Assembly (NCBI GenBank): GCA_021205185.1
Contig: JAJPYB010000011.1
Coordinates: forward strand, 33,990 to 97,989
Direction of reading: 5' to 3'
Source of the DNA: Ruminococcus sp.
GTDB taxonomy: Bacteria; Bacillota; Clostridia; Oscillospirales; Ruminococcaceae
Length of the DNA stretch: 64,000 nt
Below the pieces are notes generated by a model that searched no databases, had not been told where the DNA came from, and worked only from the letters and a program-made list of their open reading frames with translations. A program made the translations under genes and the position numbers. Shown piece by piece: positions 9,061 through 43,976 of the stretch; position 1 is the first letter of the stretch; each line of letters starts with the position of its first letter.

Positions 9061-9262
9061 ATTTCTGACTCTTTACGTTTTATTTCCTGCGAACTGTGCC
9101 ATATAGAGCGAGTAATAAGCGCCCTGCTTTTCCAAAAGCTCTTCGTGCGTTCCGGTTTCAACTACTCTTCCCTTTTCCATAACGACTATTATGTCTGCGT
9201 CCTGAATTGTGGAAAGACGATGCGCAATGATTAGGCTTGTGCGGTTTTTCATAAGATTTACC
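9048..9262. repeat. copy 2 of the ~215-bp direct repeat (the intact 3' end of the ABC gene plus half of the terminator)
   Basis: See the 6559-6773 entry. Confidence 0.9.
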
Positions 9263-10887: not shown

Positions 10888-12607
10888 AGGAAATCTCCCC
10901 CTTCTTTAGCTGCGAACGGCAAATTTCCCGATATACATCCGACGTTTCAAGCAGCTCGGAATGTGTTCCGCTGGCGCAAATTTTTCCATGCTCCAAAACG
11001 TAAATTCTGTCCGCCTGTCTGACGGACGCAATTCTCTGTGCGACAATAATTCTTGTGGTGTCTGAAAACTCCTTGTTCAAAGCCTCATAAAAGGCGCTTT
11101 CGGTCTTTAAGTCAAGAGCGCTTCCGGAATCGTCTAAAATCAGAATTTCAGGCTTTTTAATCATCTCACGAGCGATAGAAATTCTTTGCTTTTGTCCGCC
11201 AGAAAGCGAATGTCCGCTTTCGGTAACGGCAGTTTCATAGCCGTCAGCCATACGAAGTATAAACTCCTCAGCCTGCGCGGTATTTGCCGCCTTGCTTATC
11301 TCCTCTTGAGCTGCGCCCTCGCTTCCCCAGCAGATATTTTCCTTAATACTTCTTGAAAACAGCTCAGCCTTTTGCTGAACTATACCTATCTTGCTGCGAA
11401 GCGCCTGAATATCGTATTCCAGCACGTTATGTCCGTCGACCATAACCTCGCCCTCGGTTGCGTCGTAAAATCTTGGAATGAGGTCTACAAGACTTGACTT
11501 TCCGCAGCCGGTAGAACCGATAATAGCGATGGTTTCGCCCTTTTTGACAGATAATGAAATATCGTCGAGCACTATATTTTCAGGCAGGTTCGGATAGGAA
11601 AATGTTACGTGCTTGAATTCAACCTCGCCGTGTACTTTTGTATCGGCTGTCTGAGTTCCTGACTTTTGCGCGCTTTCGGTATTTAAAACCTCACGGATTC
11701 TTTTCCACGAAGCGGCGGCTCTTGTAAAGGTCTGGAAAATATTTGCCAGAAAGACAATTCTCATAAGAATCAATGAAAGATATGTAATTGCCGCCATAAT
11801 TTGTCCCGGAGTAATGCTGCCATTTGCCTGAACGGTATAGCCGCCAACGTACAAAACTCCCACAACGCACAGATTGAGGACGATATTTACGCACGGATTT
11901 AAAAACGCAAGAATAGTCTGCGCTCTTAAATTTGTACTGCAAAGAGAATCGTTAGCTTTTGAAAAGTTTTCAAGCTCGCTGTCCTCTTTAACATAAGCCT
12001 TTACCACTCTCGCTCCCGCTATGTTTTCCTGAACTACGCAGTTTACCCTATCAAGCTTTTGCTGGATTTTTGTAAAGAGCGGCGACACCTTCTTTAGCGT
12101 GAAAACTACGATCAATGTTACAAACGGCAAGCCGCACGCCGCTACAAGCGCAAATCTCGGTGACTGGCGGTAGAGCATAAAAATTCCGCCGGCAAACATT
12201 ACAACGCACCGAACCAGCGAGCGGATACATTGCATAATCATCTGCTCAACCTGCGATACGTCGTTTGTAATTCTGGTTACAAGCGAGCCTGTTGTAAAGC
12301 GGTCGGTCTGCTCAAAGGAAAAATCCATAATGTGCGAGAACATATCCTTTCTGACGTCGTTCCCGAAATTTTGCGAAGCGATATTTGCAAACACTCCGCA
12401 AAGAACTCCGCAGGCGCCGCCGAACATTACAAGCAGTACCATTTTAATTCCTTCATAAAAAATGAGCTGTATATTTCCGCCCAGTACGCCGTCGTCCACA
12501 ATCGTCGCCATCATATCAGGCTGAATCAAGTCCATTGCAATTTCGCCAAACATAAACAGCGGCGCTAAAATACAGCAGTACCAGTATTTTTTCAAGTACT
12601 TTAGCAT
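10877..12607 (-). CDS. ABC exporter, fused permease/ATPase (partner subunit)
   Basis: 576 aa with Walker A GSTGCGKSS and signature LSGGQKQR. It overlaps the downstream partner by 11 nt. Confidence 0.9.
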   Translation of the reverse strand: MLKYLKKYWYCCILAPLFMFGEIAMDLIQPDMMATIVDDGVLGGNIQLIFYEGIKMVLLVMFGGACGVLCGVFANIASQNFGNDVRKDMFSHIMDFSFEQTDRFTTGSLVTRITNDVSQVEQMIMQCIRSLVRCVVMFAGGIFMLYRQSPRFALVAACGLPFVTLIVVFTLKKVSPLFTKIQQKLDRVNCVVQENIAGARVVKAYVKEDSELENFSKANDSLCSTNLRAQTILAFLNPCVNIVLNLCVVGVLYVGGYTVQANGSITPGQIMAAITYLSLILMRIVFLANIFQTFTRAAASWKRIREVLNTESAQKSGTQTADTKVHGEVEFKHVTFSYPNLPENIVLDDISLSVKKGETIAIIGSTGCGKSSLVDLIPRFYDATEGEVMVDGHNVLEYDIQALRSKIGIVQQKAELFSRSIKENICWGSEGAAQEEISKAANTAQAEEFILRMADGYETAVTESGHSLSGGQKQRISIAREMIKKPEILILDDSGSALDLKTESAFYEALNKEFSDTTRIIVAQRIASVRQADRIYVLEHGKICASGTHSELLETSDVYREICRSQLKKGEISYAE

Positions 12608-19688: not shown

Positions 19689-19744
19689 AAAGGACACCCC
19701 CCTTTTTCCATTTCAATCTATATAAAATCCAAGGGGACAAGAAA

Positions 19745-20620: not shown

Positions 20621-20896
20621 TTACACCCAATGCAAAAACTTATACTTACCGCCATTATACGAGATACAGCCCTCTTCGATCAAGTCATTCAATTCGCTAT
20701 CAAAAGACACTCTGATACCCAAACCAACTCCCGGCTGTTTAGGTGGCAGATATACTTTCTCCAAATCCTCTCTGGTAATTTTTCCGGCTTCTTTTATTGC
20801 TTTCAATAAATCCATATTGCAGACTCTTGATATTCTCATTTTCTGTCTCTCCTTTACATAAACCACATTAACAACCGTACTTTCTCTTTCTTTCAT
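20621..20896 (-). CDS. small hypothetical protein (possibly winged-helix)
   Basis: 91 aa. Its start overlaps the stop of the SGNH gene (ATGA). Confidence 0.4.
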   Translation of the reverse strand: MKERESTVVNVVYVKERQKMRISRVCNMDLLKAIKEAGKITREDLEKVYLPPKQPGVGLGIRVSFDSELNDLIEEGCISYNGGKYKFLHWV

Positions 20897-22069
20897 TTCT
20901 CCCAGCTGAATATCAACCCCTGAAAAGCATCCGCCTGTTCCTTACTGGAAAACACTATCTCGATTTGATCCTCCACAGTGCAGTCATCTGAAACAATCAG
21001 TATATGCCGCTGTGAGAAATCATAATTGAATGTAACCGTCGGAGCTTCGAACAGTTCTCCATCCACATATATTTCCGTCACATTATCGCCGCTCTGCCAG
21101 CTGTAATCAATTCCAAGAATACCAGAAATGGAAAGGCCTGCGATTGTGTAGGTGGTGTCATCTATGCGTTCAAACTCATCTGCTGCAATATAGCGAAAGT
21201 TTTCAAACTTCACAACATTAGCATTCACAGGCTCTATATCATAATCCGGGAAGCCTTCAATGTCATACACTCCCTGGTCTATTACCTTTTCAACCACTTC
21301 TGCGTAGATCGCCTGACCAGCATCATTCGGATGAACACCATCATCAGTATAAGAATCGTAATCCTCAGAGAACGGCTCAATCGTGTCAGCAACTGGGATG
21401 CCATAATAATCACAGATCTCCTGTATTGTTACCATCTTCTCGGTGTAATCCTTCTGTGAGGATTCGAGTATGGAAATGATGGAGCAGTTTTCATACTTGC
21501 TGCTTATTGCCCTTATTATCGTTTCATAATAAAGGGGGAAGTCTGTCGTGGAATCGTTCTGGCCGTAACATATCACAGCCAAGTCATAATCAATGTCATC
21601 GTCCAGCTTCATAACCCTGCTGTAACCGGCATAGGAAGCGTTACCACCCATGGAAACATTGGTAAGACTAACAGTCCCTCCGTATTGTTCTGCAAGGTAT
21701 GAGTTGAGCAGGGTCGTCCATCTGTGTGATTCATCGCTTGCACCGGATGTTGCCCCAATGGAATCCCCGACTATCAGGATATTTACATCATAACCCTTGT
21801 CGAGTTTCTCATAAAAGCTTGAATTAACGATATCCTCTTGTCTTGCAGCTTCTTCTGCCTCAGATGCTTCCTCTTGAGCTTTCCGTTCGGCATCCAGTTC
21901 CTCTTGGAGGCTTCGCAGATAAGCTGATTGTTCTTCCTGCTGGATGTGGTCATAGTAGAGCATTCCTGCAAGACCAACAGCAAGAACAATAATTACAATT
22001 GTTATAATGATGTTAAATGTACGGCTAGAGGAATACCCCCCGCCTATGGTGGTGATGACTATGCGACAT
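20893..22069 (-). CDS. SGNH/GDSL esterase 1; the N-terminal leader and TM anchor are out of frame at a G6 tract (uninterrupted ORF 20893-21963)
   Basis: GDSIG and DDGVHPN motifs are present. The ATG at 22069 has an AAGGAG SD and encodes MSHSHHHHRRG, then the G tract. The TM segment NIIITIVIIVLAVGLAG lies in the catalytic-domain frame and is joined only if the tract is G5 or G8. Confidence 0.7.
22036..22041 (-). repeat. homopolymeric G6 tract (C6 on the plus strand); candidate slipped-strand switch
   Basis: Read directly: gaata-cccccc-gcc. Confidence 0.9.
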
Positions 22070-22198: not shown

Positions 22199-23202
22199 TT
22201 ATGTTTTCTTCTTTCCGTACAACCACGGTGCATATTTGTTGCTGAACAGTACAATTGGAACGATAATAAACAAAACTGCAATTGTCGCGGAAAGAAACCA
22301 GAACAATTCAGATCTGCCAGGCAAAATTAATACTGTTAAACGCATCATGGCAGCCCTACAAATCTTGCATATAGCAAACTGCCACACATATATTACAATT
22401 GAATTTCTTCCGCACCAATTCAAGTATGAGGAGTCTCTTAACCATCCTGCAATGCCCCACACGCCTGCAATTCCAAGAAGAGCTGTAACCGCAAACAAAA
22501 GGAGATTACCATACTCATTGTCATACATTGCCACAGGCGAATTTAAATCAACAACACAGAAGAAAACGATAACCAATATGGTACCAATAAAACCATTAAT
22601 ATACGAATTTCTGAATCCGAGCTTTTCCTTAAAAGTCTTTATCTTCTCTCTTCGGCTGCCGAAAACATACCCGCATATGTAAAAGAAGAACGCCATCGGT
22701 ACAATACTAATATAGGTAATTTCAATCCCATTTTGACTGAACAGCAGCAAAACAATAATCGCTACAATATCAACAGCAACAGTAATGATAAGTCCTTTGG
22801 ATTTGGTCAAATCAAGCACCATCGTTAATGCAAGATACAGCACAGACACGAGAAACAAAACTGGCAAAAACCAATAGTCGAAAATAAAGCTAAGAGGATT
22901 TGGCAAACTTCCACCAGCTGATAAGTTATCAACAACAGTTACAATATATTGCACAACCAGCAACGTTACCTGCGGAATCAAAAGAGAGCGAGCTTTCTTT
23001 ATGTACTGCGAATACCCCCCCGATATGGCTTAGCCGTCATTCCGGACAGAAAGAAAAACAACGGCATATGAAATGCAAGAATAATCTTGTTAAGATAAAA
23101 ATCAAGATTACCACAGCAGTGTCCTGTAATAACCAAAAGAATTGCTATGCCTCTGGCTACATCTATTTGTTTATCTCGATTCATAAAATTGCCTCCAATC
23201 AA
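22199..23202 (-). CDS. acyltransferase family 3 (AT3) O-acyltransferase 1, split into two ORFs (22999-23202 and 22199-22981) at a G7 tract
   Basis: The N-terminal piece reads RDKQIDVARGIAILLVITGHC...FHMPLFFFLSG, an AT3 signature. The downstream 260-aa piece is polytopic membrane. G8 or G5 fuses them (..KPYRGG-YSQYIKKARSLLIPQV..). Confidence 0.75.
23015..23021 (-). repeat. homopolymeric G7 tract (C7 on the plus strand)
   Basis: Read directly: aata-ccccccc-gat. It coincides with the AT3-1 frame break. Confidence 0.95.
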
Positions 23203-24812: not shown

Positions 24813-25980
24813 TTAATGCATTATTATGTGGTAAATATGTCTAATAGCTCTATACAAATAGTTTCCTCGCATTTCGCGATTAATCATACTCCAGCTTTTA
24901 TTTTCAATGTTTTTCATCAGCCTCATCCTCTTCGGATTCTCTTCAGGATGTATCCATACATGTCTGCTTCTGTCTTTTAGGTAATCCAATTCAACTGTAT
25001 GATAATTCAGTTCTTGCTTGATTTCGTTCCAGACTTTCTGCCCTTGTAAACTTGAAACAATCACTGCACTAATTCCCATATTTTCATTCTTTTCAAGAAG
25101 TTCTCCAGTATATCCCCAAAAATCAGCTAATGTAATATCCGCTATCCGCGGAAGTTTTGCATATTTGCAATGATAGCACGATTCCCTCAAATAAAAATTT
25201 CTAAGGAATCCAAATTGAAAATCATTCTTTTCACTAGTAGTGCAAATTCTTTTATTATTTTTAAGCTCAAATGAAATATGGTTGGGATTCCACCCAAATC
25301 CACCTCTCTTATCTCGCCAGCATGTACTAATAATACGGGAATTGTATTTTTTTTCCAAGTATTCAATATATTTTTTATATACCAATTGCGATGGTACACC
25401 ATGACAAACCACCTCGGTTGTTACCAAATTAGGAGAACGCTGTGTCCCTATACATTTATATAGTGCTGCAACTTGACATGGGGTTCCAGAAAAGAGAACA
25501 TATTTTCCATTCGCCAGATCTTCTTTTACTGCATTATAACATTCGCCCATTTGACTCTGTAAGTATTTTGATTTTCGAAAAGCTTCGCACTTATCTAAAG
25601 TATCAGCCCTGCCATGGAAAACGTCGAAAGGTTTTTCATACATAGCACCATATACAATACCACCCTTTGATATAATACATTTAGCAATTGGCCAAAATAC
25701 TCCGCCACTAGAACTATTCATACAGATTGTATTGTCGTTATTATATGCTGCATATACACCTAATGTTTTGTTTGTGTTATTCACTTCATTTTTCATGCAG
25801 CAAACGCTAACACACTTCCCACACCTTATACATTTCTGTCTATCAATGATTGGATAACGAAAACCGCTTTCATCGGAAGCCATTCTAATGCACTTAACTG
25901 GACACACATTTACGCATCCCTCACATCCTCAGCACATTTCTTTTTCAATTACAAATTTTTCATCCGTCATTTCTTTTCTC
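24813..25980 (-). CDS. FrhB-like (coenzyme F420 hydrogenase/dehydrogenase beta-like) Fe-S protein 1, with an in-frame TGA at codon 14
   Basis: The ATG at 25980 has a GAGGAG SD: MTDEKFVIEKEMC-TGA-GCEGCVNVCPVKC. A second cluster, CIRCGKCVSVC, follows. It is paralogous to 26034-27221 and 42004-43166. The track ORF starts at a GTG after the stop. Confidence 0.65.
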
Positions 25981-26033
25981 CTCGACTATAAAACTTATCA
26001 TCGTGGAAATCAGAAATTCGTGGCAAAACTATA

Positions 26034-27221
26034 TCAGTTGAACTTAAGCCTATTTTTATACTTGTTCCATTCTGAATATAATTTCTTCAAGAACAGCTTT
26101 GCCTTAGATGCCTCGGACTCTTTCCTGCCTGTAATCTCATGAATCAACACACAGAAGTCCTCTTTTTGGTACCTGCTCATAAATTCATCTCGATTGGCTT
26201 GAAATGTTTTACATCCTGACAGCCAGCCAAAAACAGCTCTTCCTTTCATTTGATATTCACTGAATACCAAATGCTCCTTGATTGCGTCAAATAGTTTACA
26301 TCCCTTCTCGGAATTAAGCGCAATCATGGACAGTCCTTCTCGCTGATCTTCAGTTGATGCATGATGAGCCTCGATAAAATTGTCAGAAAGCGTCATATCT
26401 CCCATTCTCGGCAGATAGGCGAATTGACAATTGTAGCATGAAGGCCGCAGTCCGTATGATTTAATAAAGCAAAGATTGAACTCATCATCATATGCTTCTT
26501 TCGAGATTTTTCTTCCATCAGATAGCACTGTAGTAAAGACTACAGGATTCCACCCATGGCTCTTATCCCGATAGTAATCAACAACTTCTGATCCTTCGGT
26601 TTCTTTTATAGAAGAGCAAAACTTATCAAAAGCCGCTGTTGATGGCACACCATGACATTTCAAATCACAGGTATAAAGATTATCAAAGTCTTTTCCCAAA
26701 AACGAGTAAAGACCGGCAACCTGACAAGGAGTTCCTACGAATAATACTGGTTTCCCTGTTTTTAATTTTTTTAAACATTCTTTATATGAATTTCCAATTG
26801 CACTTTGGAAATACTTTGAAAAACGCAACTTATCTACATCTTCGTAGTCATCTATACAGGTGTGTCTGATATCAGAAATATAATATTTTTCTGCTCCAAA
26901 TACATACCCCCCCCCAGATAAAATTTTATCTGCAAGTAAACTGAAAACTCCTCCGGAAGAACTCTCTCTTCTAACGCTAATATCACTGTTATAGCAGTTT
27001 ATCGCCCTCACAGTGGAGAATCTTCGCCCTATATTCGTTCTGACCCAGTTGGCAGAAGGACAAACTTTTTCGCACTTGTGGCATTCAACACATTTATCCT
27101 GGTCTACCACCGGATACCGAAAGCCATGCTCATCTGCTATCATTGCAATTGCACCTACTGGGCAAGCATTAGAGCAGGCCTCACATCCATAGCATTTACT
27201 TTTTCGAGTAATTCTAATCAT
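26034..27221 (-). CDS. FrhB-like Fe-S protein 2 (intact; contains an in-frame G9 tract)
   Basis: 395 aa with an N-terminal 2x CxxCxxCxxxCP ferredoxin motif (CYGCEACSNACP, CVECHKCEKVCP). It lies next to a pyruvyl transferase gene, a commonly seen pairing. Confidence 0.75.
   Translation of the reverse strand: MIRITRKSKCYGCEACSNACPVGAIAMIADEHGFRYPVVDQDKCVECHKCEKVCPSANWVRTNIGRRFSTVRAINCYNSDISVRRESSSGGVFSLLADKILSGGGYVFGAEKYYISDIRHTCIDDYEDVDKLRFSKYFQSAIGNSYKECLKKLKTGKPVLFVGTPCQVAGLYSFLGKDFDNLYTCDLKCHGVPSTAAFDKFCSSIKETEGSEVVDYYRDKSHGWNPVVFTTVLSDGRKISKEAYDDEFNLCFIKSYGLRPSCYNCQFAYLPRMGDMTLSDNFIEAHHASTEDQREGLSMIALNSEKGCKLFDAIKEHLVFSEYQMKGRAVFGWLSGCKTFQANRDEFMSRYQKEDFCVLIHEITGRKESEASKAKLFLKKLYSEWNKYKNRLKFN
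26907..26915 (-). repeat. homopolymeric G9 tract (C9 on the plus strand), in frame, encoding Gly-Gly-Gly
   Basis: Read directly: tacata-ccccccccc-agata. It codes SGGGYVFGAE. Confidence 0.95.
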
Positions 27222-27228
27222 AATTTTG

Positions 27229-28416
27229 TCACCTCTTTATAATAGAATAGCTGTTGTATGCTTCTTTAATATATTCTGGCATAACGGCATTCAAATGAGT
27301 GCGGATATCATTCTGGTTTTCATTCAACCATAAAAAAGCGTTAGCTATTTGCTCTTTATCGTCTACTTTGTCCACCTTAAGCACATAATTTTCATCTGTA
27401 CCAAACAAATCCCTTGCGATTCCGACTGATTTAACGGAATAACCGATAACCAGCGTTGGAACACAACTGGAATAAGCCGCAATAGTAGAATGAGTTCTTG
27501 CACCAATAAACATCTGACATTGCGAAATGATATATTTAAGTTGAGCCGCATTGTAGTCTTCCCCAAGCAAAAGCATATCCCCATAAGACTCGCAGGCTTG
27601 ATACAGCTTTTCCAAAGGCTTATAATCCGAGCCTCCCATTACATGAGGAACAAAGATTGGAGTATAACCCTTTTCAATTATCTTCTTAACCATATTTTGA
27701 TATGCTGCAAAAGTGACCTCGGCACTTCCTCCATACTGCGGATCAAGGATTAAAGAACTAAGATTAACTCCCACCATTTTACCTTTTTTCCACCCTTGGG
27801 GAAAATCAACCACCTCTAAAGGCATTGCAAAAGCCGGATCGGGATAGTATCTTATATCTTTTTTAGAATACTTAGTGGTCAAATTTTGTTTACTTGTTCT
27901 CTCCCTCACAGTTATAGCATCGAATTGAGAAATATCGCTTATCACTTCATCAGTAATATCATTTTCACCAAATGAGCAATCATACATAATCATCCTGGCA
28001 TTCGCCTTTATTCTTATCACCGAATGAAGCTCATGCAAATTTTCAAACATATTATAATGGATATCATAATTGTCTCCACCCACACATATGACCACATCGC
28101 TCTTTTTACATATGTCAATCAGTTTCGAGTATCGAATACTGGCAGCAGCAGTCCGGAGCTTTAGAACTTTTTTAAAAAACGTATAAATTGCTCCCATAAT
28201 AAGATTTTTCTTGGTCACAGTTGACTTTCTAATAAATCCCTTTGTATTAGGTAGTGGTGGCAGTTCTTCTATGTCAGCATCATTTGAGACAATCCACACC
28301 TCTGCATTGGATTCATTGTGGCATATGATTTCCGATATCCCTCTGGCTAATGCCTCTGAACCGCGATTGTTTTTTACTGTATTCAAGATAACTATGTATT
28401 TACTCATGTATAACAC
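27229..28416 (-). CDS. polysaccharide pyruvyl transferase 1 (WcaK/CsaB-like)
   Basis: 395 aa with N-terminal VILNTVKNNRGSEA, VICVGGDNYD and C-terminal IGARTHSTI motifs typical of the family. Confidence 0.8.
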   Translation of the reverse strand: MLYMSKYIVILNTVKNNRGSEALARGISEIICHNESNAEVWIVSNDADIEELPPLPNTKGFIRKSTVTKKNLIMGAIYTFFKKVLKLRTAAASIRYSKLIDICKKSDVVICVGGDNYDIHYNMFENLHELHSVIRIKANARMIMYDCSFGENDITDEVISDISQFDAITVRERTSKQNLTTKYSKKDIRYYPDPAFAMPLEVVDFPQGWKKGKMVGVNLSSLILDPQYGGSAEVTFAAYQNMVKKIIEKGYTPIFVPHVMGGSDYKPLEKLYQACESYGDMLLLGEDYNAAQLKYIISQCQMFIGARTHSTIAAYSSCVPTLVIGYSVKSVGIARDLFGTDENYVLKVDKVDDKEQIANAFLWLNENQNDIRTHLNAVMPEYIKEAYNSYSIIKR

Positions 28417-29465
28417 TCTTTTCTGTTTTTAATAATGTTTTCACTTTTGAATAAAGAAGATATATCAATAATGGGACAACAATCCCGACTATAGTGTAGC
28501 AAATCCACCAGCCGCCATTTGAGTATAAATACCCATGTGTTTCTAAGGCTTCAATAGGCTCTTTATATATCAATATCTGTAACACAGTAACAAGTTTAAA
28601 AGCTGCGAAGTGAAACATTACAATTGGAAGAGTGTGCTTACCCATATATGAAAGTCCCGAAGCTAACGGTGTTCTGCCAAGAAGACATCCGACCGCATAA
28701 CACATAGCTGTTCCTGAAATAGAGCATATGATAAAGTACAACGGATTAACCAGCCTATTCATATTGATCGATAAGTCTCCAAACATATGCATTATACTAA
28801 TTATAATCGCACCAACAAGCATAATGATAACAGAATTACGTACTGACAAGTTTCTCTGCACTCCACTCTTCTTTGCAACAAATCCAATCTGAAATAGAAT
28901 CAATACCGAGAATATATTTCCGTACTTTCCAATTGGACTATAATACAATAACCATCCAACGAGTAAGCATATGAAGCAAATAAACGTCTTCATAACTTCC
29001 TTCTTTTTGAAACACTTCGTGCAAAACCAATCAATTACAGCATATAAAATCGTGGCACAGAACATTGTTCTTAAAAACCACATTGCTCCACTTAAACTTT
29101 CTCCACCTGAAAAGAAAAAACACTTGAGCAAACCGGTTAAAATCTGCTTTACACTGTACCCCCCCCCCGCCGGTAATATGCAGCATATTAAGCGGATTAT
29201 GTAGAAGAACAACCGCCGAATTAAATAGCACGCAAGGGACATATAGCGACTTAATTCTCGATATAACTAACCCTTTCAAAGATGCAAAATCTTTAGAGTG
29301 CCTTTCGCTATAGCAAAATCCTGCTATAACAAAGAATACAGCCATATGAAACTGGTAAATCCACCTTGTATATACAAACCCGCTGTGCCCGATCACCATT
29401 AGAATTATTCCAACAGCTTTAGTAATATCAATTGTTCTATTTCTTTCCATCTTTTGTTTCCTCAC
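28400..29465 (-). CDS. acyltransferase family 3 (AT3) O-acyltransferase 2, frameshifted at a G10 tract
   Basis: The N-terminal piece reads RNRTIDITKAVGIILMVIGHS...FHMAVFFVIAGF. The membrane-domain frame continues (GGGYSVKQILTGLL...) if the tract is G9 or G12. Confidence 0.75.
29159..29168 (-). repeat. homopolymeric G10 tract (C10 on the plus strand)
   Basis: Read directly: ctgta-cccccccccc-gccgg. It coincides with the AT3-2 frame break. Confidence 0.95.
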
Positions 29466-30547
29466 ACCTCATCTAATCTTGAAAGGGCCATAACTAACCA
29501 ATCCCTTGATTCATCACGATGTGTTGCAATCTTATTGTTAATGACCTCATAATCCAGTGTATCAAAATCCTCGTTATTATATATACCGCTCTTAATTTCT
29601 CTACCCTTAATGCAAAAACGACTAAGCATATCCTCCACGCGAAGATTGCGTCCTTTTTTATCATGATCCAATTCAACAAAGAATTCTTTTGCAAAAATGA
29701 GCGACATTGCAGTTCCGTGAAACGAGTTAGTAACTACATAATCTGCATTCATAAAATAACCTACCGCAGCGTCTGGTGCTAAAGCATCCAGATAAATTCC
29801 ACGACCCTTTTTTTTAAATCCAGAATTGAGAAAAGCAACCTGCTTTCCTGTCTTAGCGGCAAGACTATGGGCAAAGTCAGACAATCTCTCAGAATATCCT
29901 ACGGAAAACACTAATATGTAATTCTCCTGTCCAACTGTACCCGCAAACTCTTTCCACTGCCTCTCTGCAAGCAAGAATGTTGGATCTAACACGATTGCGG
30001 GTTCCCTGCCAGAAATTTTCTTAACAAAATGCGCTGTTTGTTCATCTCTGACGGATATTTCATCAAAACGCAAAAGATCCTCCCTAACGTTATCTAATTG
30101 CGCTTCTGAAGGGAAAAATTTATCAGAGCAGGCGGCATATGATATTCGTCTGTTAGTACCATCTACAAAGTCAAGATAATATCTCCTATCATTTCCTGTT
30201 ATTGAATAATTCCATATCTGATCACTCCCAGTAATAAATATATCATATTCTTTATTTACTCGGTTTACATCAAAGTCAGCCGGTTGAAGCTTATCATCAA
30301 CGCAATCTTTAAATGAATCCCATTTTTTTCTCCGTGAGGAATACAAAAGTAAATCGAGCGGGAAATATTTTAGTGGTTTTATGCGTATAGTTGGATAATA
30401 AACACCCTCGATTTTATTGCTTCTGTAATCTATAATATCTACAGTGTATCCCAAAGATTTCAGCGCCTCCTTTAAGGCATATGCTTGGAAAAAGGCACCG
30501 TAATTAACTGCTCTATGAAAAGTTATAATTCCTATATGTTTCATCAA
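29462..30547 (-). CDS. polysaccharide pyruvyl transferase 2
   Basis: 361 aa with an N-terminus IGIITFHRAVNYGAFFQAYAL typical of the family. Confidence 0.8.
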   Translation of the reverse strand: MMKHIGIITFHRAVNYGAFFQAYALKEALKSLGYTVDIIDYRSNKIEGVYYPTIRIKPLKYFPLDLLLYSSRRKKWDSFKDCVDDKLQPADFDVNRVNKEYDIFITGSDQIWNYSITGNDRRYYLDFVDGTNRRISYAACSDKFFPSEAQLDNVREDLLRFDEISVRDEQTAHFVKKISGREPAIVLDPTFLLAERQWKEFAGTVGQENYILVFSVGYSERLSDFAHSLAAKTGKQVAFLNSGFKKKGRGIYLDALAPDAAVGYFMNADYVVTNSFHGTAMSLIFAKEFFVELDHDKKGRNLRVEDMLSRFCIKGREIKSGIYNNEDFDTLDYEVINNKIATHRDESRDWLVMALSRLDEV

Positions 30548-31571: not shown

Positions 31572-32510
31572 CTAAACATCCAACTTTATCCACGCATCAG
31601 GAAGTGAAAACTCCCATTTTCCTATATTATTAATCCTGCAGTAGCGTGGTGCTATAACTATCCTGTTTGTCTGATTTCCCAAAAAAGCTCCCCAAAAAGA
31701 GAATGTACTATTAGAAATAATATTGTGTGAGCATAGAGACATCATAATCATGTCAATATTGCTTTGTGTTTTGTCATGAATAACGACTTCTTTATTATTT
31801 AGAAATTCAAATTCTCTCTTCATAAACTCAGGTTCATCAGAAAAAATAAAATATTTTACGTCTGTTCCTATGATCGATTCCATTCTTTTGATGGCTTCGA
31901 TATAATACTCTTTGTGGCATATATTAAACTGCGAATTGTCGTATATAAAGTCTCCTCTTCTAACATGTATACTGACCGATTTTTCACTTTTAATTTTTTC
32001 GATAAGTCTGTAGTCAGTATCTTTCAAATGAGGTTCTCTGAAAACAAAAGAACCTCTAACAATATCCTCATACCCTCTAAAATATGATATGTCCTGCCAC
32101 ATTCCGCGAAAATACCAGTCAAATTCCGTATTAAGATGGAAGATCACCCCCCCATATCCGCGATCTGTTATGGTTCTTTGCCTTTTTTTACGTGAAAATA
32201 ATGTTTTAAAGTCTTTATACACAAACTGCCATCTGTGAGCCACTGAATTTCTAATCTTAAAAGGCAATCTGTTAAAATTGTTTCCCGGAACAAAACCACA
32301 GCTAATCTTTTTTATCTCTTTATTTGTTGCGTATTCAAGTGTAGTATCAAATACAGATTCAATTTCAAAGCCATTGTGTTCTTCTATCATTGAATAATGC
32401 GTTATATCTGCTTTGATTTCAGTATTGGGATACAACTCACGCAAAAGACTCTGCAAAGCATACTGATACATTTGGTTACCCAATCCTCCACTATATTTTA
32501 CAATAAACAT
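31572..32510 (-). CDS. glycosyltransferase family 11 (alpha-1,2-fucosyltransferase-like), intact, containing an in-frame G7 tract
   Basis: 312 aa with GGLGNQMYQYA and HVRRGDF motifs. Confidence 0.8.
   Translation of the reverse strand: MFIVKYSGGLGNQMYQYALQSLLRELYPNTEIKADITHYSMIEEHNGFEIESVFDTTLEYATNKEIKKISCGFVPGNNFNRLPFKIRNSVAHRWQFVYKDFKTLFSRKKRQRTITDRGYGGVIFHLNTEFDWYFRGMWQDISYFRGYEDIVRGSFVFREPHLKDTDYRLIEKIKSEKSVSIHVRRGDFIYDNSQFNICHKEYYIEAIKRMESIIGTDVKYFIFSDEPEFMKREFEFLNNKEVVIHDKTQSNIDMIMMSLCSHNIISNSTFSFWGAFLGNQTNRIVIAPRYCRINNIGKWEFSLPDAWIKLDV
32147..32153 (-). repeat. homopolymeric G7 tract (C7 on the plus strand), in frame (..GYGGVIF..)
   Basis: Read directly: gatca-ccccccc-atatc. Confidence 0.95.
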
Positions 32511-33474: not shown

Positions 33475-34024
33475 TCATAACTCCCGAATAAATCTTGCAG
33501 GATTTCCTGCCCATATTTCATTATCCGGTACATTCTTCGTGACTACTGAACCTGCACCAATTACAGAATGTTTCCCAATGTTTACCCCTTTTAGAATAAT
33601 GCTTCTTGCTCCTATAAAAGCTCCTTCGCCAATAAATATAGGTGCAGTCTTTACATGAGAATCTGGTTTCTCAATACGATAAGCATATTCAATAGAGTGA
33701 AAATCTGTATCACATATCATGCAGTTTGAGCCAATCAAAACATTATCTTCAATTACAATATTTTCAAATGCAGTAATTGCACTGTGGCTGATTCCTACAT
33801 GATTGCCAATTTCGATACCCCCCCCCACGCTCTGCTCGAAGGTGGGTACGGTTGCAGCCCGCTACAGGATTCACATTGGGTGATGAGTGAATTGACACAT
33901 CATCTCCAAGTGTAATTTTGCCAGAGCCATGAATAGCTATAAGCCCTGTAATTGACAGGTTACTTCCGTATGTTACTCTTTTTCTTTTCAACATTAGATT
34001 GTTGTAAATTCTGCTTAAAATCAT
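33475..34024 (-). CDS. hexapeptide-repeat acetyltransferase, split (33764-34024 and 33475-33828) at a G9 tract
   Basis: Both halves carry LbH repeats (ITGLIAIHGSGKITLGDDVSI; IEIGNHVGISHSAI..IGSNCMI..IGARSIILKGVNIGKHSVIGAGSVV). G8 or G11 joins them (..RAERGG-GIEIGNHVG..). Confidence 0.75.
33818..33826 (-). repeat. homopolymeric G9 tract (C9 on the plus strand)
   Basis: Read directly: cgata-ccccccccc-acgc. It coincides with the frame break. Confidence 0.95.
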
Positions 34025-35725: not shown

Positions 35726-35992
35726 TCATTCAATATATTTCTCAGCTATCTTCTTATATGAAAAGGTCTCCATACCTTTCTCTTCTGCAACACGTTTCAT
35801 TTCTTCGTACTCGCCTGATTCCTTTAAAATACTTAATATTTTCTCATGTATCTCATACACACTATCCTTATAAAGGAACTCAACACTTCCTCCAAGAACA
35901 ACATATGTGGTTCCTTCCCAACATTTACATAACATTGGAATACCTTGTCCCGCAACCTGCTCCCTCAACAACCAGTTTGTCATAATTGAATG
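35726..35992 (-). pseudogene. orphan C-terminal fragment of a GT4 glycosyltransferase (duplicate of the 3' end of 38335-39492)
   Basis: REQVAGQGIPMLCKCWEGTTYVVLGGSVEFLYKDS...AEEKGMETFSYKKIAEKYIE compares with WEQVAGLGIPMICKYWEGTTHIDLGGNVEFLHKDS...AEEKGMETFSYRKIAERCIE. The upstream part of track ORF 35726-36205 is antisense read-through into the epimerase gene. Confidence 0.75.
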
Positions 35993-36020
35993 AGAGAGCA
36001 ATGATGTTATCAGACCCACT

Positions 36021-37019
36021 TTACTTCTGATTATTAATTTGTTTCTCAATCCAATTGTACGATTCCAGCAATCCTTGCTCCAAAGAAACAGTTGGCTCCC
36101 ACCCAAGAACAGCTTTTGCTTTGCTGTAATCTGCACAACGAGCTTTATCGCCCTCTGGCTTAGAAGTATCAAAGAACGGCTTAATGTCCTTACCAGAGAT
36201 TTCAATCACCTTATATGCAATTTCCTTGATTGAAGTACAATAAGATGGCCCTATCTGGATGATTCCCTGACCCCATCCTTTTTCCAGAGCAAGCACAAGA
36301 GCATTGACAATATCATTCACATGGATAAAAGCACGACCCTGTTCGCCACTACCCCAAACATTAAACGGCTCAGCTGGGTGATTAACAGCTTTGCGAATGA
36401 GTGCAGGGATAACCTGGCTTCTCTCGCCAAAGTCAGTAGGTGTCCCATAGACATTGTGTAACATTAGTATGCTGCACGGGATTTCAGTTTCCTTCTCCAA
36501 GTATCCCATTTCCAACTGTCCCATCAGCTTGCTCCAGCCATAAGCAGATTCAGGCATTGCAGGGAAAAGTTCATCTTCACGCAACGGCTCAGGATTCAGC
36601 GTATTCTGACGTGTCAATGGAAAGCTACACACCGTACCAACATACAACAGACCCTTTATTTTTTCCCTTCCTGCCTTTCTGCAGCAGTCAAAAACATTTG
36701 AATTAATCAAGTTGTTGATGCGAAAGAGTTCTCCCTGATTCTTAAACACATAATCAATTCCAGCAACGACATCTGCCAGATGAACGACATAATCTGTCAT
36801 CCCGATCACTTCTTTGGTTTCCTCATAATTTGTGAGGTCATTCTTAAAAAAATGGGTATCAATATCAATTACAGGTCGTCCATTGTCGTCGTAAAGATTC
36901 TCAACCTTTCCACGCCAGAGATTATCTGCCACGTAGACATCCCAACCCTCTTTTACAAGGCGCTTTACAAGATTAGAACCAATCATGCCACATCCGCCTG
37001 TTACCATTATGCTTTTCAT
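36021..37019 (-). CDS. NAD-dependent nucleotide-sugar epimerase/dehydratase (extended SDR)
   Basis: 332 aa with TGGCGMIGSNL (GxxGxxG) and catalytic YGWSK (YxxxK). Confidence 0.8.
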   Translation of the reverse strand: MKSIMVTGGCGMIGSNLVKRLVKEGWDVYVADNLWRGKVENLYDDNGRPVIDIDTHFFKNDLTNYEETKEVIGMTDYVVHLADVVAGIDYVFKNQGELFRINNLINSNVFDCCRKAGREKIKGLLYVGTVCSFPLTRQNTLNPEPLREDELFPAMPESAYGWSKLMGQLEMGYLEKETEIPCSILMLHNVYGTPTDFGERSQVIPALIRKAVNHPAEPFNVWGSGEQGRAFIHVNDIVNALVLALEKGWGQGIIQIGPSYCTSIKEIAYKVIEISGKDIKPFFDTSKPEGDKARCADYSKAKAVLGWEPTVSLEQGLLESYNWIEKQINNQK

Positions 37020-41105: not shown

Positions 41106-41999
41106 TTACCCCCCCGACCTTCTGGCCGGTTCTATCTTAAGTTCTCCTTGCTTTTCCATCTTTGTCCCCAGCTTCTCACATTCGTAAAGCTTGGCATCCA
41201 CAAGATACCGATACCAGTACGCCTGCAGGAATGTGTATATCTTTCCTTCTTTACCGTCAAGAAAACCGAGCCGTATGTAATACCGATATATGAAGTAAAG
41301 ATGTGCCCTAAAGAATTTCGGCAAGCTGTAATAGCCATGGTTTTTGATGAACCGCTTCATCTTTGCCTGCGTGGATGTCGCTGTGTCCTCCACAGATTCT
41401 GCACTCTCGGCTTTCATCTGCTGGTCAAGTACTTCCTTATTACTATACCAGTTATGCTTTCCAATCCACCACTCTAAAGACTTCTGGTTGTTGTCACTGA
41501 AATCATGATTGAACGTAACTACATCTCCGTCTGTAACGATGAGATGCTCGTCCATCATCTTCGTCTCGGACATGCCGTGACCTACACGGAATATCCGCAG
41601 AAGAAGCTCCGGATACTTACCTCCGTGCTTCAACCAGCGACCCATGAAGTACACACGCCGCCGGAGGATAACTCCATTCACACTTTCAGGAAGGCTATCT
41701 AACTTCTCATCTATCTCCTGAGCAAGTTCCGACGTGAACTCCTCATCAGCATCCACTTTCGCAACCCACGCTGTGGAGAGATTTATATTATCAAGTGCCC
41801 AGTTAAACTGAGCAGCATGATTTTCAAATTTATGCTCATACACATCAGTTCCCAGCTCTTTGGCAAGAGTCACAGTATTGTCCGTGCTGAAGCTGTCCAC
41901 CACAACAATCCTCTTAGCCACACCGTAAAAGGAATCGATGCACTTTTTTAAGTTCTGTTCCTCATTTTTAGTGAGGATGATTATTGTCAGATCAGCCAC
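41106..41999 (-). CDS. glycosyltransferase family 2; a G7 tract occupies its last three codons
   Basis: 297 aa with IIILTKNEE.NL..C..S......VVVDS.STD...DADE motifs. It ends ..RRSGG-TAA. Confidence 0.8.
   Translation of the reverse strand: MADLTIIILTKNEEQNLKKCIDSFYGVAKRIVVVDSFSTDNTVTLAKELGTDVYEHKFENHAAQFNWALDNINLSTAWVAKVDADEEFTSELAQEIDEKLDSLPESVNGVILRRRVYFMGRWLKHGGKYPELLLRIFRVGHGMSETKMMDEHLIVTDGDVVTFNHDFSDNNQKSLEWWIGKHNWYSNKEVLDQQMKAESAESVEDTATSTQAKMKRFIKNHGYYSLPKFFRAHLYFIYRYYIRLGFLDGKEGKIYTFLQAYWYRYLVDAKLYECEKLGTKMEKQGELKIEPARRSGG
41109..41115 (-). repeat. homopolymeric G7 tract (C7 on the plus strand) at the stop codon of the GT2 gene, abutting a 7-bp hairpin
   Basis: Read directly: ggtatta-ccccccc-gacc. 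The adjacent AATACCC-tatg-GGGTATT hairpin lies at 41086-41103. Confidence 0.9.
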
Positions 42000-42003
42000 G
42001 TTT

Positions 42004-43166
42004 TCATCTCCTAATCTTATATAGATTTAAGGCAACGAGGATTTGTTTAATCCTATATTTCAAGTATGTCCTTCTGGAGTGCGGCGCATATTTTCTTATG
42101 ATCCCGTCAAAATCCAGCTTGTCATAATCCTGCCAAAACGCTGCCCTGCTTTCTGGGCATTTAAATGATTCCTTAAGGGGAGGCTGCATGCTCTTTTCTA
42201 TATCAGTTTCCTGATAATCAATATTTCCGGCATTCACCGTCTTTAAAAAAAATTTTTGCCTTCATCACTGTTGATCAAAACAAGCGAGACACCTTTATCG
42301 TCATTGAATCCAGGAGCCGCATTATCAATTCCCCAATAATCTGCAATTGTTATGTCTCCCGGATGATTAATGTCCTTATATGGGCATGAATAACAGGATG
42401 GGCGCATGTATTGTGGCCATAGAACAACTCTGTGTATACACATGAATCTTTTCTGACATCGTCAAAATATACTGATTCAATATGGGTAGACCATCCGAAA
42501 TTTCTCTTATTTCTGAAATCAATTCCAGTTGCTGTCTTTTCAATGCGTTTCTCCCACCATTCCTTATAGTCACGATACACACGTGGGCTGGGAACTCCAT
42601 GACAAACTATATCCATAAGAAGCAGATTATCTGGAACTTCCCCTAAATAACCTATAACAGCTGCTACTTGGCATGATGTCCCGCTGAACAGAACGGCGCG
42701 GCCACTTTCGACATCCTGTTTTATTTGTGTATAAATCGAGCTATCCATTCGAGACTGTACATATTTGGATCCACGCATACGGTCTCTTCCTGACGCATTT
42801 TCCGTCCTAATATGAACCACTTCCAATGATGGTTGTAAAACCGAACCATAAATTACCCCCCCGCACAAGAATAAGATCGCAAACAGCCGTGAAAATTCCA
42901 CCTGACCGGCTTGCCATTCGTGTATCTATATCTTTGTGTTTTACTGCAAGACAACGAATGAATTTATTCTTAATGGTTTCAACATGATTGGCGTTTTGAA
43001 AAACACAAGCAGTCTTACAAAGACCGCATTCGATGCACTTCCCTTTATCAATTAAGGGATAGAGAAACCCCTCATTATCATCAACCATACTGATTGCTGA
43101 CTTAGGACACCTTGCTATACACGCCTGACATCCACAGCATTTTTCTTTATCTGAATATAAGTTCAT
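42004..43166 (-). pseudogene. FrhB-like Fe-S protein 3, broken into four ORFs (G7-tract frameshift plus two further frameshifts)
   Basis: The pieces at 42807-43166, 42350-42901, 42243-42443 and 42004-42237 are collinear with paralogs 1 and 2. The breaks are at the G7 tract, near 42425 (..FYGHN / MRPSCYSCPYK..) and at the T8 run (A8 on the plus strand, 42246-42253). Confidence 0.75.
42856..42862 (-). repeat. homopolymeric G7 tract (C7 on the plus strand)
   Basis: Read directly: aatta-ccccccc-gcaca. It coincides with the first frame break, and G6 or G9 would join the frames (..LILVRGG-VIYGSV..). Confidence 0.95.
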
Positions 43167-43239: not shown

Positions 43240-43976
43240 TTATCCATACACATACTCACTAATCGCTTCCGCCCATCTCTCATATGCCTCATCATAAAGA
43301 TGGATACCATCCTTTGTCAGTTCTTCCGGCATTACCCCATCTACTGCATACAATTCATATAAATCAATAAATATTATGCCCTTCTGTTCCGCCATTTCTT
43401 TTATTAACCCATTCAGTTCGCAGATATTTTCATTAGATATAGAATTCCCTCTCATATCTGTGTTCACTGGAAGAATGCTTTGAATGTAAATCTCAACATT
43501 GGGGCATTCTTCCTTAATTTCAGCAAGCAGTACCTCATACCTCTCAACTATTACATTCAAGTCCCCTTGGTAGTTGTTCAAATCATTGACTCCGGCCATA
43601 ATGAATATTTTCTCTGGATTGACTGCTGAAATCATTCCGACACGTGTCTGCATTTTTGTGATCGTGTCACCAGTCAGTCCTAAATTAACTATGGTCAAGT
43701 CCTCGAAGTAATCCTGAAAGGACGAACCCCTAGTGATTGAATCCCCAAAGAAAACAACATCTGAATCTATATCCAGCTTTTCTAAACAAGATTCCCATGA
43801 AACAGCTGTCCAGTCTGTGGAAACGGTTGGCTCTGCCAGTCCAAGATGTGATAGAATTTTATTGTCGTATCCTGATGTGTGCAAAAGGAAGCCAAAAGCA
43901 CATAGCCATACGATATTAGTAATTACCAATAGAGGAAGAAGAATACCCCCCCACGCCAAATTTTCTTATTTTTCAT
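43240..43976 (-). CDS. SGNH/GDSL esterase 2 with an N-terminal TM anchor; the ATG start is out of frame at a G7 tract (track ORF 43240-43959 uses a TTG)
   Basis: FFGDSITRGS and DGIHL motifs are present. The ATG at 43976 has a GGAGG SD and encodes MKNKKIWRGG, then hits a stop after 17 codons unless the tract is G8 or G5. Confidence 0.75.
43946..43952 (-). repeat. homopolymeric G7 tract (C7 on the plus strand)
   Basis: Read directly: gaata-ccccccc-acgcc. Confidence 0.95.

What the first reader, a model, noticed from the sequence alone, without database searches (positions are those of the whole stretch)
24813..27221. In three FrhB-like paralogs, the same Gly-Gly site is a G-run in two copies and interrupted GGTGGT in the third
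The three proteins align at ..AKCIISKGGIVYGAM.. (paralog 1), ..ADKILSGGGYVFGAE.. (paralog 2) and ..VCDLILVRGG|VIYGSV.. (paralog 3, 42004-43166). The conserved Gly-Gly is encoded as aag-ggt-ggt in paralog 1 (around 25659-25666), which is not slippery. It is encoded as an uninterrupted G9 in paralog 2 (26907-26915, in frame) and as G7 in paralog 3 (42856-42862, out of frame). Using GGG codons to build a homopolymer at a site where a paralog uses GGT is the pattern expected if mutability itself is selected, rather than a chance run.
Basis: partly seen in the sequence, partly recalled or inferred. Interest (0 to 1): 0.7.

Follow-up and report, generated by a model that had tools for sequence, protein, structure and literature searches.

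The report
Slippery G-runs in capsule-decoration genes
The two G-runs belong to a set of eight unstable poly-G tracts that most likely switch sugar-coat decoration genes on and off in an uncultured gut Clostridia bacterium, a trick well known from pathogens such as Campylobacter; one of the two FrhB copies is already a dead gene.

Summary
FrhB paralog 1 codes the Gly-Gly as aag-ggt-ggt. Paralog 2 has an in-frame G9 (26907-26915). Paralog 3 has an out-of-frame G7 (42856-42862).

These two tracts are part of a larger pattern. The window has eight G≥7 runs (15 G7 matches against 1.85 expected). All lie on the coding strand of one 22-kb polysaccharide locus. They sit in two Acyl_transf_3 genes, a hexapeptide acetyltransferase, a GDSL hydrolase, a GT11, a GT2 tail and two FrhB-like genes.

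GGG is the rarest Gly codon outside the locus (6%), and 0 of 53 Gly-Gly pairs there are GGGGGG. Two near-identical metagenome populations differ at 4 of 7 G-tracts, at 0 of 18 A/T runs ≥7, and at only 2 SNPs in about 24.5 kb. A single tract-length change restores each of four broken genes.

So this is a poly-G contingency (phase-variation) locus, which supports the "selected mutability" reading at locus level. The two FrhB tracts themselves did not vary. Paralog 3 carries two further frameshifts, one of them outside any repeat, and is a pseudogene. The "same site" coincidence is weak evidence, because each protein has only two Gly-Gly sites. None of 86 homologs has a tract there. A flank signature, Y-G(n)-TA, remains unexplained.

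The parts
26034..27221 (-). FrhB-like paralog 2 (395 aa: 2x[4Fe-4S] ferredoxin domain plus FrhB_FdhB_C), intact (ON)
   Evidence: ORF. Pfam PF04432 at 61 bits. AlphaFold2 pLDDT 88. Foldseek hits to FrhB-type subunits at E 7e-15.
26907..26915 (-). G9 tract coding Gly103-Gly105 of paralog 2, in frame. G8 gives a stop at codon 123 and G10 a stop at codon 117.
   Evidence: Same length in the window and in both Logan runs. Lies in the turn between helix 92-102 and strand 106-112.
24813..25907 (-). FrhB-like paralog 1, with no tract (aag ggt ggt at 25667-25659)
42004..43166 (-). FrhB-like paralog 3, a pseudogene with three frame changes. Three point repairs give an intact 388-aa protein.
   Evidence: tblastn frames 3>1>3>2. 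Repaired protein hits PF04432 at 76 bits.
42856..42862 (-). G7 tract of paralog 3 at the homologous Gly-Gly site, out of frame (needs G6 or G9)
   Evidence: Also G7 in SRR15221354.
42245..42252 (-). T8 run on the coding strand, third frame change of paralog 3 (needs T9 or T6). The second change is a 1-nt loss near 42410 in non-repeat sequence.
27229..28407 (-). Polysaccharide pyruvyl transferase immediately upstream of paralog 2. A second one lies at 29462-30547.
   Evidence: PF04230. The same pairing is seen in the loci of the closest homologs.
28400..29450 (-). Acyl_transf_3 gene b, split by the G10 tract at 29159-29168 (OFF; G9 or G12 restores 349 aa)
   Evidence: Repaired protein matches profile positions 3-325 of 326. 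At least G12 in SRR15221354, and contigs of both runs end at the tract.
22199..23184 (-). Acyl_transf_3 gene a, split by the G7 tract at 23015-23021 (OFF; G8 restores 328 aa)
33475..34024 (-). Hexapeptide acetyltransferase, split by the G9 tract at 33818-33826 (OFF; G8 restores 182 aa). G7 in SRR15221354.
31572..32510 (-). GT11 glycosyltransferase with an in-frame G7 at 32147-32153 (ON). G6 in SRR15221354, where the gene is split into 121 + 191 aa.
43240..43976 (-). GDSL/SGNH hydrolase with G7 at 43946-43952, nine codons after an ATG with a good Shine-Dalgarno sequence (OFF; G8 restores 245 aa). G9 in SRR15221354.
41109..41115 (-). G7 tract on the last codons and stop of GT2a (41106-41999; tcg ggg ggg taa). 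The orthologous tract in another genome is G10.
   Evidence: L069 ortholog.

Best explanation
The G9 in FrhB paralog 2 and the G7 in paralog 3 are two of eight coding-strand poly-G tracts in the capsule/exopolysaccharide locus of an uncultured spore-forming gut Clostridia bacterium. NCBI names its cluster mates 'Ruminococcus sp.' MAGs. The tracts act as simple-sequence contingency switches. Replication slippage adds or removes a G, the reading frame shifts, and translation stops within about 10-20 codons, so each decoration enzyme toggles ON or OFF independently. The enzymes affected are two membrane acyltransferases, a hexapeptide acetyltransferase, a GDSL hydrolase, a GT11 and the FrhB-like partner of a pyruvyl transferase. 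A clonal population therefore displays many glycan variants.

Shown: the tracts are non-random; GGG is otherwise avoided; four tracts differ in length between near-clonal populations; single-tract repairs restore full genes.

Inferred: reversibility, slippage as the mechanism, and selection by phage or immunity.

For paralog 2 the switch is predicted but was not observed (ON, G9 in both samples). Paralog 3 is a former switch gene that is now a locked-off pseudogene. The shared site reflects constraint. A G-run has to be laid over an existing Gly-Gly, each protein has only two, and this one is a helix-to-strand turn whose preceding residues vary in the family.
For: There are eight G>=7 runs, all on the coding strand and all inside 23.0-44.0 kb. 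G7 occurs 15 times against 1.85 expected, 0/100 shuffles.

GGG makes up 6% of Gly codons, and 0/53 Gly-Gly pairs are GGGGGG outside the locus, against 7/29 inside.

Logan contigs from SRR15221356 are 100% identical to the window. Those from SRR15221354 differ over about 24.5 kb by one ordinary SNP, one SNP at the edge of a G-run, and length changes at four tracts: 43946 G7>G9, 33818 G9>G7, 32147 G7>G6, 29159 G10>=G12. Four of 7 G-tracts changed against 0 of 18 A/T runs >=7 (hypergeometric p = 0.003, computed by hand).

Contigs of both runs break exactly at the longest tract. The left end stops at G10 or G12, and in SRR15221356 the right contig starts with G10. A de Bruijn branch from mixed tract lengths would look like this.

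Changing only the tract length restores full-length Acyl_transf_3 (twice), hexapeptide acetyltransferase and GDSL proteins with proper starts.

Tracts sit in decoration genes, not in the flippase, ugd, the priming transferase or the epimerase.

The same pattern recurs in 80 ugd-linked loci of other gut Clostridia. There are 32 runs >=7, with lengths peaking at 9, and 30 are on the ugd strand. Of 20 host ORFs scanned, 14 are acetyl- or acyltransferases.

An orthologous tract is kept, at a different length (G7 vs G10), across flanks only 72% identical.

For the site itself: 0 of 86 FrhB homologs have G>=7 there and none uses GGG-GGG. The paralogs are 34-35% identical. The GGG lies in a turn with pLDDT about 97.
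Against: Neither FrhB tract differed between the only two populations available. No read-level data could be examined, so heterogeneity within a population is only inferred from contig breaks.

No ON allele of any OFF gene is on record. Five of the seven tract genes that a frameshift can inactivate are OFF in the window, which also fits plain gene loss.

Paralog 3 has a non-repeat frameshift, and the neighbouring GT2b has a nonsense codon. Part of the locus is therefore decaying.

The window and SRR15221356 are probably the same sample, so the comparison rests on n = 2.

The function of the FrhB-like protein in polysaccharide synthesis is unknown, so no phenotype can be named for its switch.
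Confidence: 0.68

Rival explanations
1. Neutral decay. The G-runs are merely mutational hotspots in a horizontally acquired locus under relaxed selection, and the frameshifts are one-way pseudogenisation rather than selected, reversible switching.
For: Five of the seven tract genes that a frameshift can inactivate are OFF. Paralog 3 has three lesions, one of them outside any repeat. GT2b has an in-frame TAG. A GT1 remnant lies at 35726-36020. No ON alleles are on record.
Against: Decay does not explain why the runs exist at all in a locus of 34-40% GC that otherwise avoids GGG. It does not explain why all are on the coding strand. It does not explain why four broken genes carry no second lesion, or why the OFF lengths bracket the ON length (G7 and G9 around G8 at two genes). 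It does not explain why a tract is kept across 28% flank divergence.
Confidence: 0.17
2. Sequencing or assembly artefact. The runs are real, but their lengths, and therefore the frameshifts and the differences between samples, are homopolymer miscalls.
For: Homopolymers are error-prone, and the two assemblies break at the longest run. Only assemblies were available, not reads.
Against: None of 18 A/T runs >=7 differs, while 4 of 7 G-runs do. Two of the differences are 2 nt. An NCBI MAG assembly and a separate Logan assembly give identical lengths at all seven tracts that both cover. The MAG contig also reads through the tract at 29159 as G10, where both Logan contigs break. Tract lengths are far below the assembler's k-mer size (k = 31 is recalled from memory, not from a tool result), so every assembled length should be backed by real k-mers.
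Confidence: 0.08
3. Recoding. The OFF genes are still expressed, because ribosomes (tRNA-Gly re-pairing on GGG GGG) or RNA polymerase slip on the G-run. The tract would then tune dosage rather than switch genes.
For: A poly-G run allows perfect re-pairing in all frames. The conserved T-A after the run (UAA, UAG, UAU or UAC in one phase) resembles stop or 'hungry' codon stimulators of +1 shifting. This is inference only.
Against: TA falls in three different codon phases relative to the ON frame. DNA length does change between populations. No downstream stimulatory structure was looked for.
Confidence: 0.05
4. Chance or ordinary codon usage. Gly-Gly sites happen to be coded GGGGGG.
For: None beyond the fact that the sites are Gly-Gly.
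Against:: 0/100 shuffles reach the observed count. GGG is the rarest Gly codon, and 0/53 Gly-Gly pairs outside the locus are GGGGGG; 0/86 homologs have a tract at the site.
Confidence: 0.01

Closest known systems
Campylobacter jejuni poly-G/C contingency genes in the capsule, LOS and flagellar-glycosylation loci (review PMC8355987; phage evasion through capsule modifications, PMC3417653)
   Same: Several intragenic G-tracts of about 8-10 are clustered in one surface-glycan locus. They sit in modification genes rather than backbone genes. Each gene is independently ON or OFF by frameshift. Tract lengths differ between near-identical populations.
   Different: The host here is a Gram-positive, spore-forming gut commensal (Clostridia), not an epsilonproteobacterial pathogen lacking mismatch repair (the latter from my own knowledge). 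The target genes include an FrhB-like oxidoreductase paired with a pyruvyl transferase. The tracts carry a conserved Y-G(n)-TA flank, which I do not know to have been reported for Campylobacter. Switching has not been shown experimentally here.
Neisseria and Haemophilus SSR 'phasomes' (PMC5084427; review PMC11868660)
   Same: Many SSR loci per genome, over-represented relative to chance, located in genes that modify the cell surface.
   Different: Those phasomes are spread genome-wide and use several repeat types. Here only poly-G was seen, and only inside one locus of the 64-kb window. The review notes that multi-locus phase-variable genomes appear restricted to pathogens.
SSR-switched capsule O-acetyltransferases: E. 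coli K1 neuO (as cited in PMC3090145) and pneumococcal wciZ/wcjE/wciG frameshifts (own knowledge; PMC11934437)
   Same: Capsule O-acetylation is toggled by slippage or frameshift in the acetyltransferase gene. Three of the tract genes here, and 14 of 20 in related loci, are acetyl- or acyltransferases.
   Different: Those cases involve a single gene per locus with a different repeat unit (heptanucleotide, TA, or short runs).
C-terminal sequence switching by homopolymeric tracts in Helicobacter canadensis (PMC2823697)
   Same: The GT2a tract (41109-41115) lies on the last codons and the stop, so length changes alter only the tail. An orthologous tract has a different length.
   Different: No function has been tested here. 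The tract may instead affect the downstream gene.
FrhB/FdhB-type flavin-FeS subunits (F420-reducing hydrogenase beta, Fsr N-terminal half, HCAR)
   Same: The fold and the Pfam domains match.
   Different: The gene sits in a polysaccharide locus next to pyruvyl transferases, in a bacterium not expected to make F420 (own knowledge). Substrate and role are unknown.

Membership tests
SSR contingency (phase-variable) locus | Simple-sequence repeat inside the ORF or promoter, over-represented relative to chance and to codon usage | tested here: met
   Eight G>=7 runs; 15 G7 hits against 1.85 expected; GGG is 6% of Gly codons and 0/53 GGGGGG outside the locus.
SSR contingency (phase-variable) locus | Repeat length is hypermutable: it differs between otherwise identical genomes | tested here: met
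   Met for four sister tracts (43946, 33818, 32147, 29159), against 2 SNPs in about 24.5 kb and 0/18 A/T runs.
SSR contingency (phase-variable) locus | Hypermutability of the two FrhB tracts named in the finding | tested here: not met
   G9 (26907) and G7 (42856) were identical in the window, SRR15221356 and SRR15221354. With only two populations this is a weak test.
SSR contingency (phase-variable) locus | A length change switches expression, and the gene is otherwise intact | tested here: met
   Met for FrhB2 (G8 or G10 give stops at codons 123 and 117), AT3a, AT3b, the hexapeptide acetyltransferase, GDSL and GT11. Not met for FrhB3, which has two further frameshifts.
SSR contingency (phase-variable) locus | Reversible, high-frequency switching within a clonal population | not testable with these tools
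   This needs reads or cultures. The only hint is that contigs break at the G10/G12 tract.
SSR contingency (phase-variable) locus | Affected genes act on surface structures or host and phage interaction | tested here: met
   The locus holds Bac_transf, ugd, GT1/GT2/GT11, a Wzx-type flippase, pyruvyl transferases and acyltransferases.
FrhB/FdhB family (PF04432/PF04422) | FrhB_FdhB_C domain above the gathering score | tested here: met
   73.8, 61.1 and 76.0 bits (repaired paralog 3) against a cut-off of 23.3.
FrhB/FdhB family (PF04432/PF04422) | FrhB_FdhB_N domain above the gathering score | tested here: inconclusive
   Paralog 1 scores 21.3 against 22. Paralogs 2 and 3 are not listed. The fold nevertheless matches over the whole length.
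FrhB/FdhB family (PF04432/PF04422) | Fold of an FrhB-type flavin/FeS subunit | tested here: met
   Foldseek: 8riu_B at E 6.9e-15 (TM 0.59-0.62), 8rja_E, 7np8, 5dqr, 6qii_B, 4ci0_C. Model pLDDT 88.
FrhB/FdhB family (PF04432/PF04422) | Uses coenzyme F420 | not testable with these tools
   No cofactor evidence was obtained. HCAR, a family member, uses FAD and ferredoxin (own knowledge).

The most novel reading that the evidence does not exclude
Long poly-G tracts in the polysaccharide loci of gut Clostridia are a distinct, sequence-defined class, Y-G(>=7)-T-A on the coding strand, with lengths peaking at 9 and mostly in O-acetyl/acyltransferase genes. They are maintained across many genera. The conserved flank holds in three codon phases and biases the synonymous Val codon to GTA in 9 of 11 cases. 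It would then point to a DNA-level requirement of the switching mechanism, such as a flank that tunes slippage or a dedicated factor, rather than plain slippage on any G-run. That would make this a widespread commensal 'phasome' with its own rule.
Probability: 0.2. Interest if true: 0.8.

Novelty: new member of a known kind. Interest (0 to 1): 0.55.

Why it matters
Phase variation by simple repeats is textbook biology for a few pathogens. [quoted passage not shown]

Here an uncultured gut commensal carries at least six independently switchable glycan-decoration genes in one locus, which allows up to 64 surface states. The same kind of tract recurs in capsule loci of many other gut Clostridia.

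If confirmed, three things follow:
- Strain-level surface heterogeneity in Lachnospiraceae and Oscillospiraceae, which bears on phage predation, IgA coating and immune signalling, would be generated by a mechanism that current inverton-centred surveys do not look for.
- Many "pseudogenes" in MAG annotations of these loci would in fact be OFF-state genes.
- The FrhB-like/pyruvyl-transferase pair would become a candidate switchable modification.

Tried and rejected
1. Looked for orthologs of paralog 2 to compare tract lengths. None exist above 58% identity. The two nearest homologs code the site with G6 or with no run.

2. Looked for other assemblies of this locus, or ON alleles of the OFF genes, through exact-protein look-ups and cluster listings. 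Only the source contig and two SRA runs hold it.

3. Looked at other strains of the same species through SpoIIP. Their loci differ in gene content after ugd, and only about 5 kb was in view, so they were uninformative for the coding tracts.

4. Tested whether the two Acyl_transf_3 paralogs also share a tract site. They do not: the tract is 8 residues after the FFxxSG motif in one and about 50 residues after it in the other.

5. Considered whether paralogs 2 and 3 are recent duplicates that inherited the tract. Rejected, because they are 34% identical.

6. Considered long-read homopolymer error as the source of all frameshifts. Rejected as the main explanation.

7. Checked whether the GT2b break is a TGA that could be read as Trp. 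It is TAG.

8. Searched for other repeat types in the locus. None were found.

9. Literature searches for poly-G phase variation in gut Clostridia polysaccharide loci, for the FrhB/pyruvyl-transferase pairing and for the SRA or MAG accessions gave nothing specific.

10. Could not explain the G(n)TA flank. An amino-acid context is rejected because TA occupies three codon phases. Immediate stop codons explain only part of the cases.
Full report
OBSERVATION

On the - strand, paralog 1 (24813-25907) codes SKGGIVYG as tca aag ggt ggt att. Paralog 2 (26034-27221) codes SGGGYVFG as tct ggg ggg ggg tat, with an uninterrupted G9 at 26907-26915 inside an intact 395-aa ORF. Paralog 3 (42004-43166) reads gtg cgg ggg ggt aat, with G7 at 42856-42862, and the frame breaks there. 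All three carry the FrhB_FdhB_C domain and an N-terminal 4Fe-4S ferredoxin domain. The site falls in one alignment column, where the second Gly is invariant in 32 family members.

tblastn with homologs gives frames 3>1>3>2. The second change is a 1-nt loss in non-repetitive sequence near 42410 (ggccacaa|tacatg). The third is at a T8 run (42245-42252). With three point repairs the gene gives an intact 388-aa FrhB-like protein. It is therefore a fairly young but genuinely dead gene.

CONTEXT

The window (41% GC) has ten poly-C runs of 6 or more on the + strand and none of poly-G. In other words, every run is poly-G on the - strand, which is the coding strand. Eight of the runs are 7 or longer. 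G7 occurs 15 times against 1.85 expected, and 0 of 100 dinucleotide shuffles reach that count.

All eight lie between 23.0 and 44.0 kb, inside a polysaccharide biosynthesis locus. The locus contains Bac_transf, GT1, ugd, GT2, an epimerase, GT11, two pyruvyl transferases and a Wzx-type flippase. It sits between ilvBNC and a regulator in a spore-forming Clostridia bacterium. NCBI names the cluster mates 'Ruminococcus sp.' MAGs.

The tract-to-gene map is as follows:
- 23015, G7: splits Acyl_transf_3 gene a. G8 restores 328 aa.
- 26907, G9: FrhB2, in frame.
- 29159, G10: splits Acyl_transf_3 gene b. G9 or G12 restores 349 aa.
- 32147, G7: GT11, in frame.
- 33818, G9: splits a hexapeptide acetyltransferase. 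G8 restores 182 aa.
- 41109, G7: lies on the last codons and stop of GT2a.
- 42856, G7: FrhB3.
- 43946, G7: nine codons after an ATG with a good Shine-Dalgarno sequence in a GDSL hydrolase. G8 restores 245 aa.

The repaired acyltransferases match the whole Pfam profile in one stretch, at 108 and 82 bits against 50 and 44 for the fragments. Backbone genes carry no tract.

CODON USAGE

Outside the locus, GGG is the rarest Gly codon (41/683, 6%) and none of 53 Gly-Gly pairs is GGGGGG. Inside the locus, 7 of 29 are.

HYPERMUTABILITY

Exact-protein look-ups found this locus in only two public short-contig assemblies. Contigs from SRR15221356 are 100% identical to the window, including every tract length they cover. 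This run is probably the source sample.

Contigs from SRR15221354 differ over about 24.5 kb by:
- one ordinary SNP (40853);
- one A/G change at the edge of an intergenic G-run (47887);
- four tract-length changes: 43946 G7>G9, 33818 G9>G7, 32147 G7>G6 (GT11 split into 121 + 191 aa), and 29159 G10>=G12.

None of 18 A/T runs of 7-8 nt in the compared stretch differs. Four of 7 against 0 of 18 gives p = 0.003 (hypergeometric, computed by hand). At two genes the two populations carry lengths on either side of the ON length (G7 and G9 around G8).

Contigs of both runs end exactly at the longest tract. The left contig ends with G10 or G12, and the right contig of SRR15221356 starts with G10. A de Bruijn graph would produce this if several lengths coexist. 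That reading is an inference.

The two FrhB tracts and the GT2a tract were the same in both populations.

IS THE FrhB SITE SPECIAL?

Paralog 2 has no ortholog above 58% identity. Its two nearest homologs code the site cag ggg gga (G6) and cga ggc gga. Among 86 homologs for which DNA was obtained, none has G>=7 at the site (maximum G6, in 4) and none uses GGG-GGG.

The three paralogs are 34-35% identical to each other, so the two tracts arose independently in this lineage.

Each protein has only two Gly-Gly dipeptides: the invariant SSSGG motif and this one. Once each protein has a tract built on a Gly-Gly, a shared site therefore has about a 1-in-2 chance. In the AlphaFold2 model (pLDDT 88), Gly103-105 form the turn between helix 92-102 and strand 106-112, and the residues before the invariant Gly vary in the family. 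The site is simply the tolerant one.

The fold matches FrhB-type flavin/FeS subunits: 8riu_B at E 7e-15, then 8rja_E, Fsr, HCAR and FrhB itself. What the protein does next to a pyruvyl transferase is unknown. The same pairing is seen in the loci of the nearest homologs.

GENERALITY

In 80 ugd-linked loci from other gut Clostridia (1.17 Mb), there are 32 G/C runs of 7 or more. Thirty are G on the ugd strand. Their lengths peak at 9 (7:9, 8:6, 9:11, 10:4, 11:1, 13:1), whereas G5 to G6 falls tenfold. Of 20 host ORFs scanned, 10 are hexapeptide acetyltransferases and 4 are Acyl_transf_3. The rest are two GT1, one Branch, one TupA-like ATP-grasp, one Bac_transf and one Polysacc_synt_2.

The window's density, 8 runs in 22 kb, is about 13 times that background. 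One tract, the GT2a tail, has an ortholog in another genome (L069) with G10 instead of G7. Its flanks are 72% identical, and the tract plus TAA is conserved while neighbouring codons have diverged.

AN UNEXPLAINED SIGNATURE

Runs of G3-G6 are followed by TA in 4-7% of cases. Runs of G>=7 are followed by TA in 23 of 32 cases in the 80 loci and in 7 of 8 in the window. Position -1 is C or T in 34 of 40, and the upstream sequence is T-rich.

The TA falls in three codon phases: GGG TAY, G GTA, and GGT ATH. When Val follows the tract, the codon is GTA in 9 of 11 cases by my reading, against a 28% background (p = 3e-4). The signature is therefore at the DNA level, not the protein level. I have no tested explanation for it.

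INTERPRETATION

The best-supported reading is a poly-G contingency locus of the Campylobacter capsule type (PMC8355987, PMC3417653), here in a Gram-positive gut commensal. Slippage toggles decoration enzymes independently.

Paralog 2 is a predicted member, currently ON. G8 or G10 would truncate it at codon 123 or 117. Its switching was not observed. Paralog 3 is a former member that is now locked off.

Rivals:
- Neutral decay of an acquired locus fits the OFF excess and the true pseudogenes. It does not fit the existence, strand, cleanliness or conservation of the tracts.
- Homopolymer miscalling is contradicted by the stability of the A/T runs, the 2-nt differences and the agreement between two assemblies.
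- Recoding by ribosomal or transcriptional slippage is untested.
- Chance is refuted.

Literature searches found nothing on poly-G switching in polysaccharide loci of gut Clostridia. [quoted passage not shown]

VERDICT

This is a new member of a known kind. The flank signature is the most novel loose end.

Noticed in passing
window tracts at 23015, 26907, 29159, 33818, 41109, 42856, 43946; loci L008-L087: G runs of 7 or more carry a flank signature, Y-G(n)-T-A, upstream T-rich. TA follows 30 of 40 long runs but only 4-7% of G3-G6 runs. It sits in three codon phases, and a following Val is coded GTA in 9 of 11 cases. Unexplained.
   Followed up: partly
window 47887-47892 (intergenic, 28 nt after the ilvC stop, upstream of the polysaccharide operon): This G-run is G5 in the window, G6 in SRR15221354 (through an A>G change at its edge), G7 in strain L089 and G8 followed by TAA in strain L088. 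It may be a promoter or leader tract for the whole locus.
   Followed up: partly
window 41109-41115; L069 12012-12021: The tract on the stop codon of GT2a is conserved, at a different length (G7 vs G10), in an ortholog whose flanks are 72% identical. It can only change the C-terminal tail or affect the next gene, which lies 62 nt downstream.
   Followed up: partly
window 40139-41044: The second GT2 of a tandem pair (59% identical to GT2a) has an in-frame TAG at 40466-40468 where the paralog has Trp. This is a true nonsense pseudogene, present in both samples.
   Followed up: yes
window 35726-36020: An orphan C-terminal remnant of a group-1 glycosyltransferase lies directly after the epimerase gene (36021-37019). 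It is a sign of past rearrangement in the locus.
   Followed up: no
window 29159-29168; L001, L002, L003, L004 ends: Short-read assemblies of two SRA runs both break exactly at the longest tract. This suggests mixed tract lengths within each sample.
   Followed up: partly
window 22036-22041 and 19697-19702: Two G6 runs lie on the same strand. The first (G6 followed by TA) is 73 nt upstream of a second GDSL hydrolase gene (20893-21963). They may be short or decayed members of the same tract class.
   Followed up: no
window 4454-5557 and 9073-12607: A radical SAM/SPASM peptide-maturase homolog lies near two ABC-exporter-sized genes. This may be a RiPP cluster and is unrelated to the finding.
   Followed up: no
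L088 and L089 (other strains of the same species): The polysaccharide locus occupies the same chromosomal site (after ilvC), but its gene content differs completely after ugd. This is typical capsule-locus replacement.
   Followed up: partly
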